A stretch of DNA of 64,000 nucleotides from the human T2T-CHM13v2.0 reference genome, Homo sapiens: the NCBI RefSeq assembly GCF_009914755.1, contig NC_060926.1. One strand, written 5' to 3'. The notes under the pieces are model-generated. The model worked only from the letters and a program-made list of their open reading frames with translations. It was not told the origin of the DNA and ran no database searches. Shown piece by piece: positions 1 through 56,039 of the stretch (the first letter of the stretch is position 1; every line of letters starts with the position of its first letter). A program made the translations under genes and the position numbers.

Positions 1-574
1 GGAAGAAAGGAGTGACTATGAAAAGGTACAGGCAAAATAAATTTTCAGAGCATAGCAGGTGACTGGATATGGGAATGTAAAAATAAATATGATATTACAT
101 ATGTACGCCCTGATTTCAATAGTAACAATTTTCTAATCGTGTATATGAAGAGTGTAGCTAAAAAGATAACCCAGAATATATTCTCATTTTCATATTTAAT
201 AAATGTTTTCTGCTTTTTTCTTCAGAGTACAACTACAATTATAACCTCAGTCATTTTTGTAGTAACCCAAGGGGTTAGGAGATGACAGTTCTCTGAAGGC
301 ATGGTACCTATTTTTTTTCTTTCCCTGAAGTGTACGTTTGTGCTACATGATTAATAATTTATTTCAGATAGTTTATATGGACTATTTTTTAAGAAAAACA
401 ACTTCCTTTCACACATAAATACACACACATAACACACACACACACATAAACACAATGAATACGCATCTTGGCAAATGACCATTTCATGTGCTGGGGTGGT
501 AGAAAATGTGGTTTGGGGCTTAAAACACAAAAAATCATGGCTTTCTTTTCACAAAAGTTATTGAACAACAGATT

Positions 575-1260
575 GACACCTGACATTACCTCTACCTCTG
601 CTACCATGGCACCTTTTTTTATGAGCCATGGATCAATGAGAAGAGTAGCTGAGGAAAGAGGCTGACTGCTATTCACTTGATTATTAAAACCCTTTGCTGC
701 TGAGGTCACCTTTTGGTGACTATTCACATGGGACACAAACACCTTCTTGTTCTCTCCCCCACACCCCCATACAGTGAGCTCTATCAACATAACTCTTCAC
801 CAGACTTCTTTATCACTATTTTTTCAGTCATGTTCCTTCCAAGTCCCTGACCATTCAGCCAAACCAGTGGATACAGCCCATGAGTTGGTATATTATCACA
901 CATCTGGCCACTTCTCCTTCCAAGCAAAGTGAACAATCGCTGTTGTTTGAGGCTGTCTCAGAAAGAGGCTGTAGTCCTGCAGCTGTCCACTTTAAGGTGG
1001 TGTGTACATGGTATATGTTGTACAGGCTCATTCGTTAACCAGACCTGAGTCTTCTTCCTCTGTTAAGTAATTTTTGGGAACTCCTCATGAGGTGATAGGC
1101 AGAGAAGGCAGTACAGCGAAAGTGCAGGCTAGGGGCATTGAAGCCATTTCATCATGTAACTTACTTGTTAGTTCAGGGTGTGATCATGTATATACCATTT
1201 TCATTTGTTGATAGAGAGCTGCTGATAACTTTAAAATTTATGGTTAGGTGGCTCAGATGA
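575..1260 (-). mobile_element. ERVL (HERV-L-like) internal fragment, decayed pol (RNase H to start of integrase)
   Basis: ORF 389..790(-) contains KVFVSHVNSHQKVTSA...FNNQV...SQPLS, resembling ERVL pol KIFVSHVNAHQRVTSAEEDFNNQV...SQPLSP. Frameshifted, with no LTRs seen. Confidence 0.8.
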
Positions 1261-1971
1261 CTGAGCCTCTGGCTTTAATGACATGAAGGTGACTGAGAGT
1301 TGTCTAGCCTGACATTTCAGTGAGAGATATGGAGCCTTCAGATGATCTTCCCCTATCTTGTGAAATACCTGACCATCAGGATAGCTGTGGTTTAGGACTA
1401 CATATTAGACCATACAGCTGTAATAGTTTTGATTGCACTCTATGTTTCATTATTCATTGGAGAGCTGGTATCCACAATATCCAACTTCGTGTGTCAATAT
1501 ATCATGTGTTTAAACATTTGGAATTTTTGTAGGAAATGTGTTCTATACTGATGAGCATTTACTACTTTCTTCTACAAAATAGAATTAAAACTACATGAAT
1601 ATCATTGGGAAGTAAGCCAGACAGAGTTTATATGTGTATTTCAATAGTTTTAGTAAAGCATATCAGCTTATCAGGAGTCCTTATGTGCCACATTTTTATG
1701 TGAAAATCTTTTACCTGAAATGCCAGGTTTGTTAACTTCATAGGCATAAAGAGATTCAAGGCTGCCAATTGTCTACTGCTTTATAACTTGTATTGACTCA
1801 TTAGGACTGACCTTGCAGATCCAAATATAGTATGGAAATATTACATTGAAGAACGTTAACTTTTTTTTTAGAATGGAGGTGTTCTTCCTTTCTCTGAAAC
1901 CACTCACCTAGCCACTCTTAATATGTGTACATGGGTAATTTTGGAGGGAGTGTGTGGGGAAAGAATTACAA

Positions 1972-51066: not shown

Positions 51067-53029
51067 CTTAAATTTGCGTAAATTTTATAATGAATATGTT
51101 TCTGTAACTAAAGAATTTTGAGTTTTCACTTATGTCAGATTCATACACTTATAGAATACTTTCCCTTAATATTTTCTTACATTTTATGTATAAATTTTAT
51201 AGGTTTTAAAAGCAATGTTACTTTTCTTCAATTATTTTTAGGAAACTCAATGATTCAAAGATTTTTCTATGTAATAATCATAAAGGAGTGCCTAATGTAT
51301 ACAGCAAGACTAGTATGTGCATATATTATTTCATGTGTCCATTTTTAAGTAATATCCTAGAAAATGATTAAATGGTCTTAATGTGTGTATGTATATACAT
51401 AGACATTTAAATACATGTGTGTATAGGTGTACGAGTGTGTATAGGTGTAACTATATAGATACATGTGTCTTTTTTCATAAATACATTTCTATTTCTAACT
51501 TGCTATTTTTGGTAAACAAAATACTCTAAAATTTGTTTCCCTGCTTTTATAACTGATATGTTGAACACACCAGAGACAACTGGGAAAATGAGCAGTTTAG
51601 TGCCAAACAATTTATGACTTTAAAACTTAGCTCAGTCTTCCATCTTTCTAAACAGTTATTTTATGTAGGTTTAATCAGCAACTTCAGTTTTCCTCTACGT
51701 CTGGTTTAAACATTCCACAAGTCTCAAGGTCTCCACTAAATTCTTGCTTTCTCATGCTGAGCTGTCATATTAATTTATCTTACATGATAAACTCTTTCAG
51801 TTTCCAGAGCTGTAGTATATCACCATCTGATCACGTGACCACATCTTTAATATTGTAAAAACAGCTTCCTACTCTCATAATTCAGTTGAAGATCAAGGAA
51901 GTGATCTTCAGAGGGTAATTGAAATTCATGTCAATGTGAACTTCAGGTTTGTTCCATGAATCAAAAGGGAAACCTGACCCAAATCCTTGCACAAAGTCTG
52001 TATTTTCCTTTCCACACACTCTACAATGTCTAAACACTAATTCTCACCTCTTAAACATGTGCAGGTTACACTTCCTTCATCATCTCCTGCTTGAATTATT
52101 GCAACTATCTCCACATTAATCTTGCTTGTTCCTTGGGATATCTGTTCCTCTTAAATCAATATTTTATTTTACTACTGATTTTTGACTGTGGCCTTTTATT
52201 TAAAGACCAAGTCATCTTACATTTATGTTTCTTGGATGCTTTTCTCTTTCAGTCTTTTTGAATGACAATAGGTATCTATGGAAAATTATAACACAATGCA
52301 ATCAAATGATTTGAAAGTTGTTTTGTTTGTCATTATAGTTTGAAGAGTAGAACATTCACCTTAAAAAACACTGGCTAGTTCTGAAATTATGTTTAATTTG
52401 TATTTTTTAAAATGTTATCTGGAGGATGCTGTACTTATTCTTTCATCCTTGCCATGAGATTCAAAGTGATTATGTGTAGGGGTGTGAAAACAAACAAAAC
52501 AATAAAAATATCTAATGTAAGCAGAAAGACTTAGCTGATCCCTCTAGAGCTTGAATAAATAGACATTTCAGTCTTTTCCTGTTTGGAGTTTCACTAATTT
52601 TCTTGAAGGGAAATAGAAAAACTTGAGAAACCATTTGAAGATTTCCCTTACTGTGTAGCCTTCTTCTGTTTTATTGATGGGCTCTTTCTGTTTCAAGAAT
52701 TGCAAAGCCTGGGAGGTATTGTTGCTTAGCATTGTGCAGGAAAAGCTATCATAATGGAGAATTTTAAAAGAAAACATTGTCAGGAGTGCTTGTAGACTCT
52801 ACTATGGGGAAATTTGACATCTCTTTTGCATATTGCCACATATTTCTGTGGATTCTTAAAGAATTGAATGGGGATAAATATTAAGCTTCCGGTGAATATA
52901 TTTATTAGTTTTATGACATGAGGAATGAAAAATAATATCATTCAAGATAGCGAATTAGGTAATATAAAAATGTTCTGATGATACAAATAAATATCAATAA
53001 TGGCACTTATATATACAATTAGTTTATGA

Positions 53030-53944: not shown

Positions 53945-54200
53945 AAGTATAGCATGCTAAATGCAATGGATCCTGGATTGAAATCTTACACAAAAAAGGA
54001 CATTGGGAAAAAAGTCTGTAGTTGAGGTAATAACATACTAATATTAATTCTATAGTTTTTTTCAACTACATCATTATGAACTGTATTGACATTAGGAAAA
54101 ACTTATGAAGAGTAAACAGATAAATTGCATACCACCTTTGCATCTTTTCTGTAAATCTAAAATTATTCCAAAATTTTTATAATATATATTTTTAAAAAGA
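53945..54200 (+). mobile_element. L1MC/L1ME 3'UTR fragment
   Basis: ctaaatgcaatggatcctggattg...tttgcatcttttctgtaaatctaaaattattccaaaat. Confidence 0.7.
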
Positions 54201-54313
54201 AATAGAACATGAATACTAAATAGTCTTTCTATATTCACTGACAATAAAATATATAAATTATCTCATGCAATAAGGATAGCAATTGATTTTTTTAACTTTA
54301 GGAATGATATTAT

Positions 54314-54693
54314 TGTCAGGCCTCTGAGCCCAAGCTCATATCCCCTGTGACCTGCACCTATACATCCAGATGACCTGAAGTAACTGAAGAATCACAAAAG
54401 AAGTGAAAATGGCCAGTTCCTGCCTTAACTGATGACATTACCTTGTGAAATTCCTTCTCCTGGCTCATCCTGGCTCAAAAAGCTCCCCCACTGAGCACCC
54501 CACTCCTGCCCACCAGAGAACAACCCCTCTTTGACTGTAATTTTCCTTTACCTACCCAAATCCTATAAAACAGCCCCACCTCTATCTCCCTTCGCTGACT
54601 CTCTTTTCGGACTCAGCCCACCTGCACCCAGGTGAAATAAACAGCCTTGTTGCTCACACAAAGCCTGTTTGGTGGTCTCTTCATAGGGACGTG
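54314..54693 (+). mobile_element. HERV-H LTR7-family LTR, near full length, lacking the last few U5 bases
   Basis: tgtcaggcctctgagcccaagc start, TATAAAA at 54564-54570, AATAAA at 54636-54641, and aagcctgtttggtggtctcttca U5. Confidence 0.95.
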
Positions 54694-54714
54694 AACTCGC
54701 TGAGTCCGCCCTTA

Positions 54715-54899
54715 GTAATGTCATCAGTTAAGGCAAGGACTGCCATTTTCACTTCTTTGGTAGTGGAATGCCATCAGTTAAGGCAGGAACAGGCCATTTT
54801 CACTTCTTTTGTGATTCTTCAGTTACTTCAGGCCATCTGGGCGTATACATGCATGTCACAGGGGATACAATTGCTTGGCTTGGGCTCAGAGGCCTGACA
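54715..54899 (-). mobile_element. Second HERV-H LTR7 U3 fragment, inverted, of a different variant
   Basis: The reverse complement reads tgtcaggcctctgagcccaagccaagc...tatacgcccagatggcctgaag and has two copies of the aaagaagtgaaaatggc...gccttaactgatg block. Confidence 0.95.
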
Positions 54900-56039
54900 A
54901 TTATGCCTTATGCAAAATTGAAATCTTAAATAAACATGACTGTTTATTTGAACGAATTTTAAATAAACTGATAACTTTATATACTACAAAAATGGAGACA
55001 TAGTTATGTAATATGTAAATAAGTACATATGCATATGACATATATAATTATTTTTTCATTAAAATACATATAACTTTCTATTGAGATAATAGATCTAAGT
55101 TAAATTTCAGATTTCACTTTGAAAATAATCTGATTTCTAAACTGTGGTTTTACTGTATCAGCAAGAATTTTAGAAAGGCATTATGTATGTTTAAAGTAGA
55201 GCTTAAGTTGGCATATTATGTGAATTTTAAGGTTCTATATCTTAATTGGCCAAACATATGGTAGCATATCTTTCATATTTCACCATGACAAAGGTAACAA
55301 GAAGCCATATGCTCTTCTCTTGCTTCAAGGGTTGGCTTGAAGAAGGAGACTAGACACCCCATCAAGGGTTGGCTGTTTTTGGCTACATGCTTGGAATAAA
55401 GATGATTGGGGATAAATAAGTCTCACAACCAGGTCTCTAGAATAATTTGTTTGCTACTCTTCAGGTTATATAGTAGCTTTTCTTTTATTTTTCTCCCACA
55501 ATACGTTATTGGTTGCCTGACTTCAAACTCCAAGGCCTCATAAAATGTATGAGACTTTCTCTCCATTTTCCAAACCTCAATATTCTAATCTGTAAAAGGT
55601 TTAATTCACCGGCTGGCACATGGCATATCTAACTGTTAGCTACAATTTAACTTGCATTTAATTTCCTTTTCTCGGTCATATAACTAAAACTACATTTTTA
55701 TTTGTGTTGATATCAGATAAGCTGTTAGGCTTTAGAAAGCCAACTAATGTGTTGCTTTTGAGTTCTTACTGGAATACTTTTCACGGAACTTAAATTAGTT
55801 TTACTACCTCAGCATATTTTACTTGAGGTATGTTTGAAAGTCAAGAGATAAAGCTGGTCTGTGATTTCTATAGAAATTTTGACAAACACAAAAGTGGTAT
55901 AAAGCCATTATGCATACAGGCAAGCACAGTTGGGATATTTTCAGTCTGTCAAGTTTGCATTTTTAAAAATGTAGTAAGGTTTTATGAAAAGAAAAATTGC
56001 TTTTCCTTCAGTTTTCTTATCTCTTTCTTTGAATTTCAG

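What the first reader, a model, noticed from the sequence alone, without database searches (positions are those of the whole stretch)
54309..54904. Two different HERV-H LTR7 variants fused tail-to-tail, U3 at both ends, inside a single 5-bp TSD
Seen: the unit 54314-54899 starts tgtcaggcctctgagcccaagc and ends with its exact 22-bp reverse complement. It is flanked by the direct repeat ATTAT (54309-54313 and 54900-54904); a simple foldback would give ATAAT on the right. The arms are not copies of each other. The left arm has aagct/catatcccc/gacctgc/tacatccag and one aaagaagtgaaaatggc...ttaactgatg block. The right arm has aagccaagc/tatacgcccag and two such blocks. Known: retroviral integrase normally joins one U3 and one U5 end of the same DNA, HERV-H leaves 5-bp TSDs, and a provirus's two LTRs are identical at insertion. 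Inference: a fossil of bimolecular concerted integration, in which U3 ends from two different HERV-H genomes went into one target site and the free ends were then joined by host repair. The result looks like a MITE with retroviral att ends. It would imply both LTR7 variants were active in the same germline or embryonic cell. An alternative is two independent opposite insertions followed by deletion, with the 5-bp match arising by chance in AT-rich DNA.
Basis: partly seen in the sequence, partly recalled or inferred. Interest (0 to 1): 0.85.

Follow-up and report, generated by a model that had tools for sequence, protein, structure and literature searches.

The report
HERV-H insertion with two U3 ends
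A 586-base retroviral relic in an intron of ZNF804A joins pieces of two different HERV-H LTR subfamilies back to back inside one 5-base target duplication, which looks like a rare integration that used two "left" viral DNA ends; it has no evident function.

Summary
Window 54314-54899 begins and ends with an exact 22-nt inverted repeat and is flanked by ATTAT on both sides.

- **Left arm (54314-54694, +):** a nearly whole HERV-H LTR with one copy of a 50-nt block. It lacks only its last 6 nt.
- **Right arm (54715-54899, -):** the first 185 nt of U3 of a two-block LTR.
- **Filler:** 20 nt lies between the arms.

Carter et al. 2022 list the arms as separate "solo" LTRs, 7d1/LTR7d2 and LTR7u1. The arms differ by the block and by a linked four-site haplotype shared with many other copies. 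They were therefore not identical at insertion.

This family makes 5-bp target duplications. Both ends are trimmed exactly to TG...CA. A chance 5-mer match has odds of 0.1-0.4%.

Best reading, about 65-70%: one integrase event used two U3 ends. The substrate was most likely a chimeric cDNA. A MoMLV precedent from 1988 exists.

Main rival, about 20%: two separate insertions, a deletion and a chance match.

The decisive test is the empty site in other primates. No primate genome was available here. This is a new member of a known kind, of moderate interest.

The parts
54309..54313 (.). Left copy of the 5-bp flanking direct repeat ATTAT (putative target-site duplication)
   Evidence: The last ~105 nt of the left flank gave no other match in the genome search.
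54314..54694 (+). Left arm: near-complete HERV-H LTR of the one-block type (published calls 7d1 / LTR7d2), U3-R-U5. It lacks the last 6 nt of U5. It has private deletions of 7 nt near the start and about 9 nt in mid-U3. TATAAA lies at 54564-54569 and AATAAA at 54636-54641.
   Evidence: 39 scored genome copies match query positions 1-5 through 368-382 at 89-91%. One search shows the family LTR ends. Searches give the alignment and haplotype. Searches give the Carter et al. annotation. One search gives the motifs.
54314..54335 (+). U3 terminus (22 nt) of the left arm, starting with TG directly after ATTAT
54695..54714 (.). 20-nt junction filler between the arms. Positions 54699-54708 are an exact inverted copy of the R-region 10-mer at 54608-54617, in the same orientation as the right arm.
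   Evidence: (pair I8). In one search, 39 of 5,000 shuffles of the 23-nt stretch 54693-54715, which holds the filler, had an exact LTR match of 10 nt or more. Likeness to the primer-binding site and leader was not significant (488 of 2,000 shuffles).
54715..54899 (-). Right arm: inverted first 185 nt of U3 of a two-block HERV-H LTR (published call LTR7u1). The block next to the junction lies at about 54715-54766 and its tandem partner at about 54767-54817.
   Evidence: 39 of 39 non-self scored copies match from query position 1-2 to 183-185 at 91-95%, and none matches beyond 185. Searches show the blocks. One search gives the haplotype. One search gives the annotation.
54878..54899 (-). U3 terminus (22 nt) of the right arm, ending with CA directly before ATTAT
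54900..54904 (.). Right copy of the 5-bp flanking direct repeat ATTAT
   Evidence: The 400 nt to the right gave only the self-match in the genome search (1 candidate, itself).

Best explanation
The element is the relic of one integrase-mediated insertion, about 14-20 million years ago, of a linear HERV-H cDNA that carried a U3 terminus at both ends.

The substrate was most likely a single chimeric molecule. The U5 end of a 7d-type cDNA lost about 6 nt. It was joined to an inverted U3-terminal fragment of a 7u1-type cDNA, either by end joining or by polymerase template switching, and this left a 20-nt filler with a 10-nt templated piece.

Integrase then bound the two outward U3 ends and trimmed them to TG...CA. 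It inserted them into one staggered cut, which gave the ATTAT duplication.

If the 7d part was a whole provirus, it later collapsed to a solo LTR by the usual LTR-LTR recombination.

**Shown:** the anatomy, the different origin of the arms, the 5-bp rule for the family and the exact ends.

**Inferred:** that there was a single event, that joining came before integration, that the two RNAs shared a cell or a particle, and the collapse to a solo LTR.
For: 1. **Integrase hallmarks at both junctions.** The flanking repeat is 5 bp long, the length this family makes: 33 of 58 copies not followed by a primer-binding site have a perfect 5-bp repeat, 31 of them exactly at the LTR end, against a control of 490 of 14,200. 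Both ends stop exactly at TG and CA. They lack the AA that precedes U3 inside proviruses.
2. **A chance match is unlikely.** The odds are 0.22% window-wide, 0.10% locally, and 0.38% for pairs of real HERV-H insertion sites.
3. **The left arm stops 6 nt short of the natural U5 terminus**. This is expected if a free cDNA end was joined. For a random deletion breakpoint within a ~390-nt LTR I estimate the odds at about 2-3%.
4. **The filler looks like a repair or template-switch junction.** It holds a 10-nt inverted copy of the R region, matched by only 39 of 5,000 shuffles.
5. **The arms had different sources.**
   - The two-block layout of the right arm is shared by 39 of 39 scored copies.
   - At four linked sites the right arm carries states seen in 1, 0, 0 and 1 of 44 one-block copies but in 15-19 of 27 two-block copies. 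The left arm carries the one-block states.
   - The published calls are 7d1/LTR7d2 and LTR7u1.
6. **Timing and opportunity.** The 7d1/2 and 7u1 subfamilies amplified in the same 14-20 Mya window. Carter et al. infer recombination between LTR7 subfamilies and note that template-switch recombination requires co-packaged RNA genomes.
7. **Each arm is about as diverged as other copies of its type.** The left arm differs from one-block copies by a median of 3.9%, and those copies differ among themselves by 3.7%. The right arm differs from two-block copies by 7.1%, and those differ among themselves by 5.9%.
8. **Clean surroundings.** No other HERV-H sequence was found between window positions 51075 and 58258 (about 3 kb on each side), apart from one stray hit in an old repeat at 54036-54174. 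The flanks next to the element matched nothing else in the genome searches.
9. **Precedent.** Colicelli and Goff 1988, a MoMLV provirus with inverted LTRs, "integration utilizing two U3 sequences". I saw the title in a reference list; the details are recalled.
Against: - The single-event claim rests on a 5-bp match in DNA of 20.5% G+C and on one breakpoint position.
- No outgroup empty site could be examined.
- Independent HERV-H LTRs do land close together. Of 78 other loci, 4 had a second U3 terminus within the ~3.3-kb locus, and one of these (L044) is a U3-outward pair about 700 bp apart in which each LTR has its own flanking context.
- An inverted pair is also prone to central deletion (recalled).
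- The copy samples were picked by likeness to each arm. This inflates the apparent cleanness of the haplotype split.
- Downstream of the blocks only 4 weakly diagnostic columns exist. The left arm has the one-block state at 3 of them and the two-block state at 1.
- Nothing in the sequence tells whether joining came before or after integration.
- No second locus of this kind was found. Among the 40 places scored, none had a separate inverted copy beside it, but only 40 of 3,289 candidates were scored.
Confidence: 0.42

Rival explanations
1. Two separate HERV-H cDNAs, one 7d and one 7u1, each gave a U3 end to one mixed intasome. Both ends went into one target site. The dangling inner ends were joined afterwards by host repair, with loss of most of the 7u1 DNA.
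For: It rests on the same hallmarks as the best explanation: the 5-bp duplication, the exact TG...CA ends, the arms from different subfamilies, and the left arm ending near the natural U5 terminus. Integrases join two separate donor ends in vitro (recalled; one search gave only a listing of papers on concerted integration).
Against: I know of no in-vivo precedent for pairing the ends of two separate cDNAs. The only precedent found is a single molecule with an inverted LTR (title). This order also requires the 7u1 partner to have been broken, or later cut down to 185 nt plus a 10-nt R piece. The sequence cannot separate this rival from the best explanation.
Confidence: 0.25
2. A 7d LTR (+) and a 7u1 LTR (-) inserted independently a short distance apart. 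A later deletion, perhaps provoked by the inverted repeat, removed both inner ends and the host DNA between them. The two outer ATTAT 5-mers then belong to different target duplications and match by chance.
For: HERV-H LTRs do cluster. Of 78 loci, 4 hold a second U3 terminus within the ~3.3-kb locus, and L044 is an independent U3-outward pair. The flanks are very AT-rich, at 20.5% G+C. Both subfamilies were active over millions of years. The 10-nt R piece in the filler could be a remnant of a once longer right-hand LTR.
Against: It needs three coincidences:
- a 5-of-5 match, at 0.1-0.4%;
- a left breakpoint only 6 nt inside the LTR end;
- both outer termini left intact.

My rough estimate is well under 0.1 such loci expected among a few thousand HERV-H LTRs. 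This is an inference, not a computation on the whole genome.
Confidence: 0.2
3. The insertion came from a single source and the arms diverged afterwards. A foldback cDNA, or a local inverted duplication, began with identical arms. The left arm then lost one block and the arms drifted apart or were gene-converted.
For: The pairwise difference between the arms, 10 of 128 positions (7.8%), is close to what two copies of this age would build up. Tandem 50-nt repeats can collapse. One differing site is a CpG position.
Against: Four linked differences coincide with states shared by many other copies of each block type. The right arm's second block matches the family's own second block at 91-95%. The published classification puts the arms in different subfamilies. 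A duplication made in the chromosome would also have copied the flank, but beyond the near-palindromic 5-mer the flanks do not mirror each other.
Confidence: 0.05
4. The structure is an assembly artefact, a chimeric or hairpin read.
For: Palindromic structures are a known source of such errors (recalled).
Against: The same two pieces, with the same lengths and a gap of about 20 nt, are annotated in GRCh38. They are also present in the T2T-CHM13 window.
Confidence: 0.01

Closest known systems
[quoted passage not shown]
   Same: An integrated retroviral DNA with a U3 terminus at both host junctions, an inverted LTR copy on the right, and a target duplication of the length normal for the virus. 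The title was seen. The remaining details are recalled, because the paper is not held.
   Different: That case was recovered in cell culture, and as I recall from an integration-site mutant, with both LTRs from one virus. The locus here is a germline-fixed human relic whose two ends come from different LTR subfamilies. Its right arm is only 185 nt long.
Ordinary HERV-H solo LTRs (LTR7d1/d2 and LTR7u1 of Carter et al. 2022, eLife 11:e76257)
   Same: Each arm on its own is a typical member of its subfamily, and is annotated as such. The termini and the 5-bp target duplication follow the family rule.
   Different: A solo LTR has one U3 end and one U5 end inside its duplication. Here the duplication encloses two U3 ends and no U5 end. 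The published table lists the arms as two unrelated 'solo' entries.
End-joined junctions of unintegrated retroviral DNA (2-LTR circle junctions) and template-switch recombinants from co-packaged genomes
   Same: The junction lies at the natural U5 end, with a few bases lost and a short, partly templated filler. Carter et al. infer recombination between LTR7 subfamilies and note that template-switch recombination requires co-packaged genomes.
   Different: A circle junction joins U5 to U3 head to tail within one molecule, and circles are not integrated. Here the partner is inverted and of another subfamily, and the product was integrated. The comparison with circle junctions is recalled, not tested.
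MITE or foldback DNA transposon
   Same: A short element with terminal inverted repeats inside a short target duplication. It has a strong predicted hairpin, -160 kcal/mol against -64 for shuffles.
   Different: The repeats are retroviral U3 ends and the duplication length is that of HERV-H. No second copy of the composite was found: only the locus itself matched across positions 1-586 (40 of 3,289 candidates scored). It is not a transposon family.

Membership tests
HERV-H LTR, one-block type (7d1/7d2) - left arm | Matches family copies over U3-R-U5 and lacks the second ~50-nt block (block 2b is absent in 7d1/2 according to Carter et al.) | tested here: met
   The 39 scored copies are 89-91% identical over query positions 1-5 through 368-382. 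The left arm has one block. It carries the one-block haplotype. The published calls are 7d1 and LTR7d2. The paper's text on block 2b was read.
HERV-H LTR, one-block type (7d1/7d2) - left arm | A complete U5 terminus (...GTGAAA) abutting either the target duplication or the primer-binding site | tested here: not met
   The match to family LTR ends stops at 54694, 6 nt short. What follows is filler, not a duplication or a primer-binding site. The alignment to the leader was not significant, with 488 of 2,000 shuffles scoring as well.
HERV-H LTR, two-block type (7u1/7up) - right arm | Tandem pair of ~50-nt blocks (2a plus 2b) in U3, together with the family's sequence states | tested here: met
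   All 39 non-self scored copies match across both blocks, to query position 183-185, at 91-95%. The haplotype G, G, C, T at alignment columns 31, 57, 58 and 247 is shared with 15-19 of 27 two-block copies. The published call is LTR7u1.
HERV-H LTR, two-block type (7u1/7up) - right arm | Full-length LTR of about 445-455 nt | tested here: not met
   Only 185 nt are present. No copy matches the query beyond position 185.
Integrase-mediated retroviral insertion | Target-site duplication of the family's length directly abutting both termini | tested here: met
   ATTAT abuts both ends. The family rule is 5 bp: 33 of 58 copies have a perfect repeat, 31 of them exactly at the LTR end. The chance of such a match is 0.1-0.4%.
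Integrase-mediated retroviral insertion | Termini processed to TG...CA with the outer dinucleotide removed | tested here: met
   The element starts with TG and ends with CA. Inside proviruses U3 is preceded by AA, and that AA is absent here. That integrase removes two bases is established knowledge, recalled.
Integrase-mediated retroviral insertion | One U3 end and one U5 end of the same DNA | tested here: not met
   Both ends are U3 termini. They come from different subfamilies.
Two-U3 ('inverted LTR') provirus of the Colicelli-Goff type | U3 terminus at both host junctions, inverted LTR sequence on one side, and a normal-length duplication | tested here: met
Two-U3 ('inverted LTR') provirus of the Colicelli-Goff type | Produced in a single integration event | not testable with these tools
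   This needs the orthologous empty site in other primates, and no primate genome is held. A stand-in from paralogous copies failed because the flanks next to the element matched nothing else in the genome.
MITE / foldback transposon | Many dispersed copies of the same unit | tested here: not met
   Only the locus itself matches query positions 1-586 (40 of 3,289 candidates scored, so this is a lower bound).
Post-insertion foldback (inverted duplication in the chromosome) | Arms identical at origin, with the inverted copy carrying the flank | tested here: not met
   The arms carry different family haplotypes and block numbers. The right flank does not mirror the left flank beyond the 5-mer.

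The most novel reading that the evidence does not exclude
The locus is a physical record of a HERV-H particle, or a single cell, that held a 7d genome and a 7u1 genome together. Their DNAs were fused tail to tail during or just after reverse transcription, and integrase accepted a second U3 end in place of U5. If so, it would be the first natural, germline-fixed example of two-U3 integration. It would also be direct evidence for the co-packaging so far only inferred from mosaic LTR7 subfamilies. It would predict a hidden class of U3-U3 mini-elements that are now annotated as unrelated solo LTR pairs.
Probability: 0.35. Interest if true: 0.6.

Novelty: new member of a known kind. Interest (0 to 1): 0.42.

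Why it matters
If the single-event reading holds, three things follow.

1. An endogenous retrovirus's integrase accepted two U3 ends in the germ line. I know this only from one cell-culture MoMLV provirus (1988) and from test-tube reactions.
2. Two HERV-H LTR subfamilies, 7d and 7u1, met in one cell or particle 14-20 million years ago. This is the condition that Carter et al. 2022 note for template-switch recombination between subfamilies.
3. Repeat annotation that lists such arms as separate "solo" LTRs can hide aberrant integration products. A genome-wide count of these pairs would give a natural error rate for retroviral integration.

The practical importance is small. The element is a dead 586-bp intronic relic. 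Its only conceivable effect is a ~130-bp hairpin in ZNF804A pre-mRNA. Inverted LTRs can form double-stranded or Z-RNA (passages read).

Tried and rejected
1. **Empty site from paralogous repeat copies.** The right flank (400 nt) gave only the self-match. Hits to the left flank stop at query position 295 of 400, about 105 nt before the element. This test was not possible.
2. **Genome-wide pattern scan for other U3-outward pairs.** The full table of LTR7 coordinates (supplementary file 2 of Carter et al., 236,605 characters, about 24 parts by my division into ~10,000-character parts) could not be read within the look-up cap, so no survey was done.
4. **Primer-binding-site or leader remnant in the filler.** The alignment score was reached by 488 of 2,000 shuffles, so I rejected it. 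A reading in which a 4-nt slip lets the LTR run to within 1 nt of its end is possible, but it is less parsimonious than a 6-nt loss.
5. **Capture of a cDNA fragment at a chromosome break beside an existing solo LTR.** I rejected this. It would need the break exactly at the boundary between the LTR and the duplication, and a U3 end already trimmed to CA.
6. **Insertion of a second element into the first one's duplication, inversion within one provirus, and autointegration.** I rejected these on geometry. They do not put a U3 end against unique host DNA on both sides, or they give circles.
7. **Other HERV-H pieces nearby that would point to a larger rearrangement.** None was found between window positions 51075 and 58258, apart from one stray hit in the old repeat at 54036-54174.
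8. **Literature.** Searches found no description of an endogenous U3-U3 locus or of this locus. The library lacks most subscription journals. The 1988 paper itself is not held.
9. **Diagnostic sites downstream of the blocks.** Only 4 weak columns exist and the left arm splits 3 to 1, which adds little.
Full report
**What is there**

Window 54314-54899 (586 nt) begins with a 22-nt U3 terminus and ends with its exact reverse complement. These are the only two matches in the window at up to 3 mismatches, and none of 100 shuffles gave a match. ATTAT lies directly outside both ends, at 54309-54313 and 54900-54904, and nowhere else in 54301-54910. The element starts with TG and ends with CA.

The arms pair over 101 nt at 92%. 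As single-stranded DNA the stretch folds at -160.2 kcal/mol, against -64.4 +/- 3.7 for 20 shuffles.

The window's genome is the human T2T assembly and could be searched. The same two pieces, with the same sizes and a gap of about 20 nt, are annotated in GRCh38. The structure is therefore not an assembly artefact.

**Anatomy**

The arms are unequal.

- **Left arm (54314-54694, + strand).** It matches genomic HERV-H LTRs from their first base to 6 nt before their end. The 39 non-self places scored reach query position 368-382 at 89-91% (40 of 3,289 candidates scored).
- **How family LTRs end.** They end in ...GTGAAA. This is followed either by a 5-bp repeat of the upstream flank or by TT plus the histidine-tRNA primer-binding site. 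That identifies the family as HERV-H.
- **Signals in the left arm.** It keeps TATAAA at 54564 and AATAAA at 54636.
- **Right arm (54715-54899, - strand).** It is the first 185 nt of U3 of an LTR type with two tandem ~50-nt blocks. All 39 non-self places scored match from position 1-2 to 183-185 at 91-95%, and none goes further (40 of 2,144 candidates scored). The two blocks are therefore a family trait and not a private duplication.
- **Filler (54695-54714).** These 20 nt lie between the arms. Ten of them (54699-54708) are an exact inverted copy of the R-region 10-mer at 54608-54617. Only 39 of 5,000 shuffles of the 23-nt stretch 54693-54715, which holds the filler, had an exact LTR match that long. 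Likeness to the primer-binding site and leader is not significant (488 of 2,000 shuffles).

**Which subfamilies**

The supplementary tables of Carter et al. 2022 (eLife 11:e76257) list two entries. I read passages, sections 6 and 9, part 1 of supplementary file 1 and search hits in the supplementary files.

- chr2:184759632-184760011 (+) is called 7d1 on their tree and LTR7d2 "solo" after remasking.
- chr2:184760033-184760216 (C) is called LTR7u1 "solo", 185 bp.

The aligned hg38 sequence shown there agrees with the window's left arm over the part displayed. Their text says that block 2b is absent from 7d1/2 and is a tandem copy of block 2a in 7up and 7u1.

**Were the arms different when they went in?**

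I aligned the two arms with 75 natural copies. Four of 79 copies were dropped because no U5 anchor was found. I then split the copies into 44 one-block and 27 two-block copies. Four more copies carrying another insertion were left out.

- The arms differ at 10 of 128 shared positions.
- At four of these (alignment columns 31, 57, 58 and 247) the right arm has states found in 1, 0, 0 and 1 of the 44 one-block copies, but in 15, 16, 18 and 19 of the 27 two-block copies. The left arm has the one-block states.
- These four sites travel together as a haplotype in many copies. They were inherited from different source elements and did not arise after insertion.

There are caveats. The copy samples were chosen by likeness to each arm, which sharpens the split. 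About a third of the two-block copies (8-11 of 27 at each of the four sites) carry the left-arm states. Column 31 is a CpG position. Downstream of the blocks only 4 weak diagnostic columns exist, and the left arm sides 3 to 1 with the one-block type.

Pairwise distances show that each arm is an ordinary member of its type:

| Comparison | Median distance |
|---|---|
| Left arm to one-block copies | 3.9% |
| One-block copies among themselves | 3.7% |
| Right arm to two-block copies | 7.1% |
| Two-block copies among themselves | 5.9% |
| Left arm to right arm (single pair) | 7.8% |
| One-block to two-block copies | 7.4% |

Counted against the commonest state per column, the left arm has 10 private differences in 368 positions and the right arm 7 in 180. 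These are similar and fit a similar age, but they do not prove it.

**Is the ATTAT pair a real target duplication?**

- *Family rule.* I found 71 distinct LTR copies with both termini. Of these, 13 are followed by the primer-binding site. Of the other 58, 33 have a perfect 5-bp flanking repeat, 31 of them exactly at the LTR end. With shuffled pairings the figure is 490 of 14,200. Five bases is therefore the family's rule.
- *Chance of a match.* A 5-mer match at this spacing occurs at 142 of 63,404 window positions (0.22%) and 4 of 3,991 local positions (0.10%). For pairs of real, independent HERV-H insertion sites in the required arrangement it is 14 of 3,660 (0.38%).
- *Processed ends.* Both ends are trimmed as integrase trims them. 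Inside proviruses U3 is preceded by AA, and here TG and CA abut ATTAT directly.
- *Flanks.* The flanks next to the element matched nothing else in the genome searches. The loci searched against the window gave no other HERV-H match between positions 51075 and 58258.
- *Foldback excluded.* A foldback made in the chromosome would have copied the flank in reverse. Beyond the near-palindromic 5-mer the flanks do not mirror each other.

**Mechanism**

The simplest account is one integrase reaction that used two U3 ends.

The left arm stops 6 nt from the natural U5 terminus. That is where a free cDNA end would be, and it is an unlikely spot for a random deletion breakpoint. The filler, with its short templated piece, looks like an end-joining or template-switch junction.

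I therefore favour a single chimeric linear cDNA. In it, the U5 end of a 7d cDNA was fused to an inverted U3-terminal fragment of a 7u1 cDNA, and the molecule was then integrated through its two outward U3 ends. If the 7d part was a full provirus, it later collapsed to a solo LTR.

It fits the sequence equally well. [quoted passage not shown] I saw the title in a reference list. The paper is not held and its details are recalled.

Either version needs the two RNAs or DNAs in one cell. Carter et al. report that 7d1/2 and 7u1 amplified in the same 14-20 Mya window. They also infer recombination between LTR7 subfamilies and note that template-switch recombination requires co-packaged RNA genomes.

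**The main rival**

Two independent insertions followed by a deletion cannot be dismissed. Of 78 other loci, 4 held a second U3 terminus within the ~3.3-kb locus. One of them, L044, is a U3-outward pair about 700 bp apart. One of its LTRs is the 3' LTR of a provirus and the other has its own 4-of-5 flanking repeat. Inverted repeats also invite central deletions (recalled).

This rival needs a 0.1-0.4% coincidence of 5-mers, a breakpoint 6 nt from the LTR end, and two untouched outer termini. My rough estimate is well under 0.1 such loci expected among a few thousand HERV-H LTRs. Two-U3 integrations would yield of the order of one locus if they happen once in 10,000 integrations. These rates are guesses, so I leave the rival at about 20%.

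**What could not be done**

- No primate genome was available, so the decisive empty-site test is open.
- Searches of the paper library found no description of this locus or of any endogenous two-U3 insertion. The library misses most subscription journals.

**Verdict**

It is a new, natural member of a kind known from one laboratory provirus. It is of moderate interest and has no evident function.

Noticed in passing
L044 (G000:C22:35298328-35301518), locus positions 136-546 (+) and 1244-1691 (-): Two HERV-H LTRs lie with their U3 ends outward, about 700 bp apart, and are clearly independent. The first follows proviral polypurine-tract sequence, so it is a 3' LTR. The second has its own flanking repeat, CAAAG/CAAAA. 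This pair is a useful baseline for the two-insertion rival.
   Followed up: partly
window 54314-54694 (GRCh38 chr2:184759632-184760011): In supplementary file 1 of Carter et al. 2022 the left arm is flagged NANOG = 1, H3K27ac = 1 and SOLO = 1 in embryonic stem cell data. It lies in sense orientation in an intron of ZNF804A and keeps its AATAAA signal. No paper in the library links ZNF804A with LTR7.
   Followed up: no
alignment (loci L032-L060): The two-block LTR copies fall into two haplotype groups in the first 130 nt. Sixteen copies carry GC and nine carry AT at alignment columns 57-58. About two thirds read ATTAAAAAG where one-block copies read AATAAACAG at the polyadenylation signal. These groups probably correspond to 7u1 versus 7up, but I did not check this.
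   Followed up: partly
G000:C11:75260988-75261379 and 75261483-75261834: Two LTR copies lie on the same strand about 100 nt apart, at 89% and 82% identity to the left arm. This could be a tandem pair or a provirus with almost all internal sequence deleted.
   Followed up: no
window 54007-54208: The left flank holds an old interspersed repeat with many weak genomic matches (70-97% over 40-180 nt). It ends about 105 nt before the element.
   Followed up: no
window 54336 region; L017/L076 (G000:C1:112838462-112838610): The short AAGC-TAAGC repeat just inside U3 is prone to slippage. The left arm lacks 7 nt there, the chr1 copy lacks 5 nt, and the right arm has a base change at the same spot.
   Followed up: no
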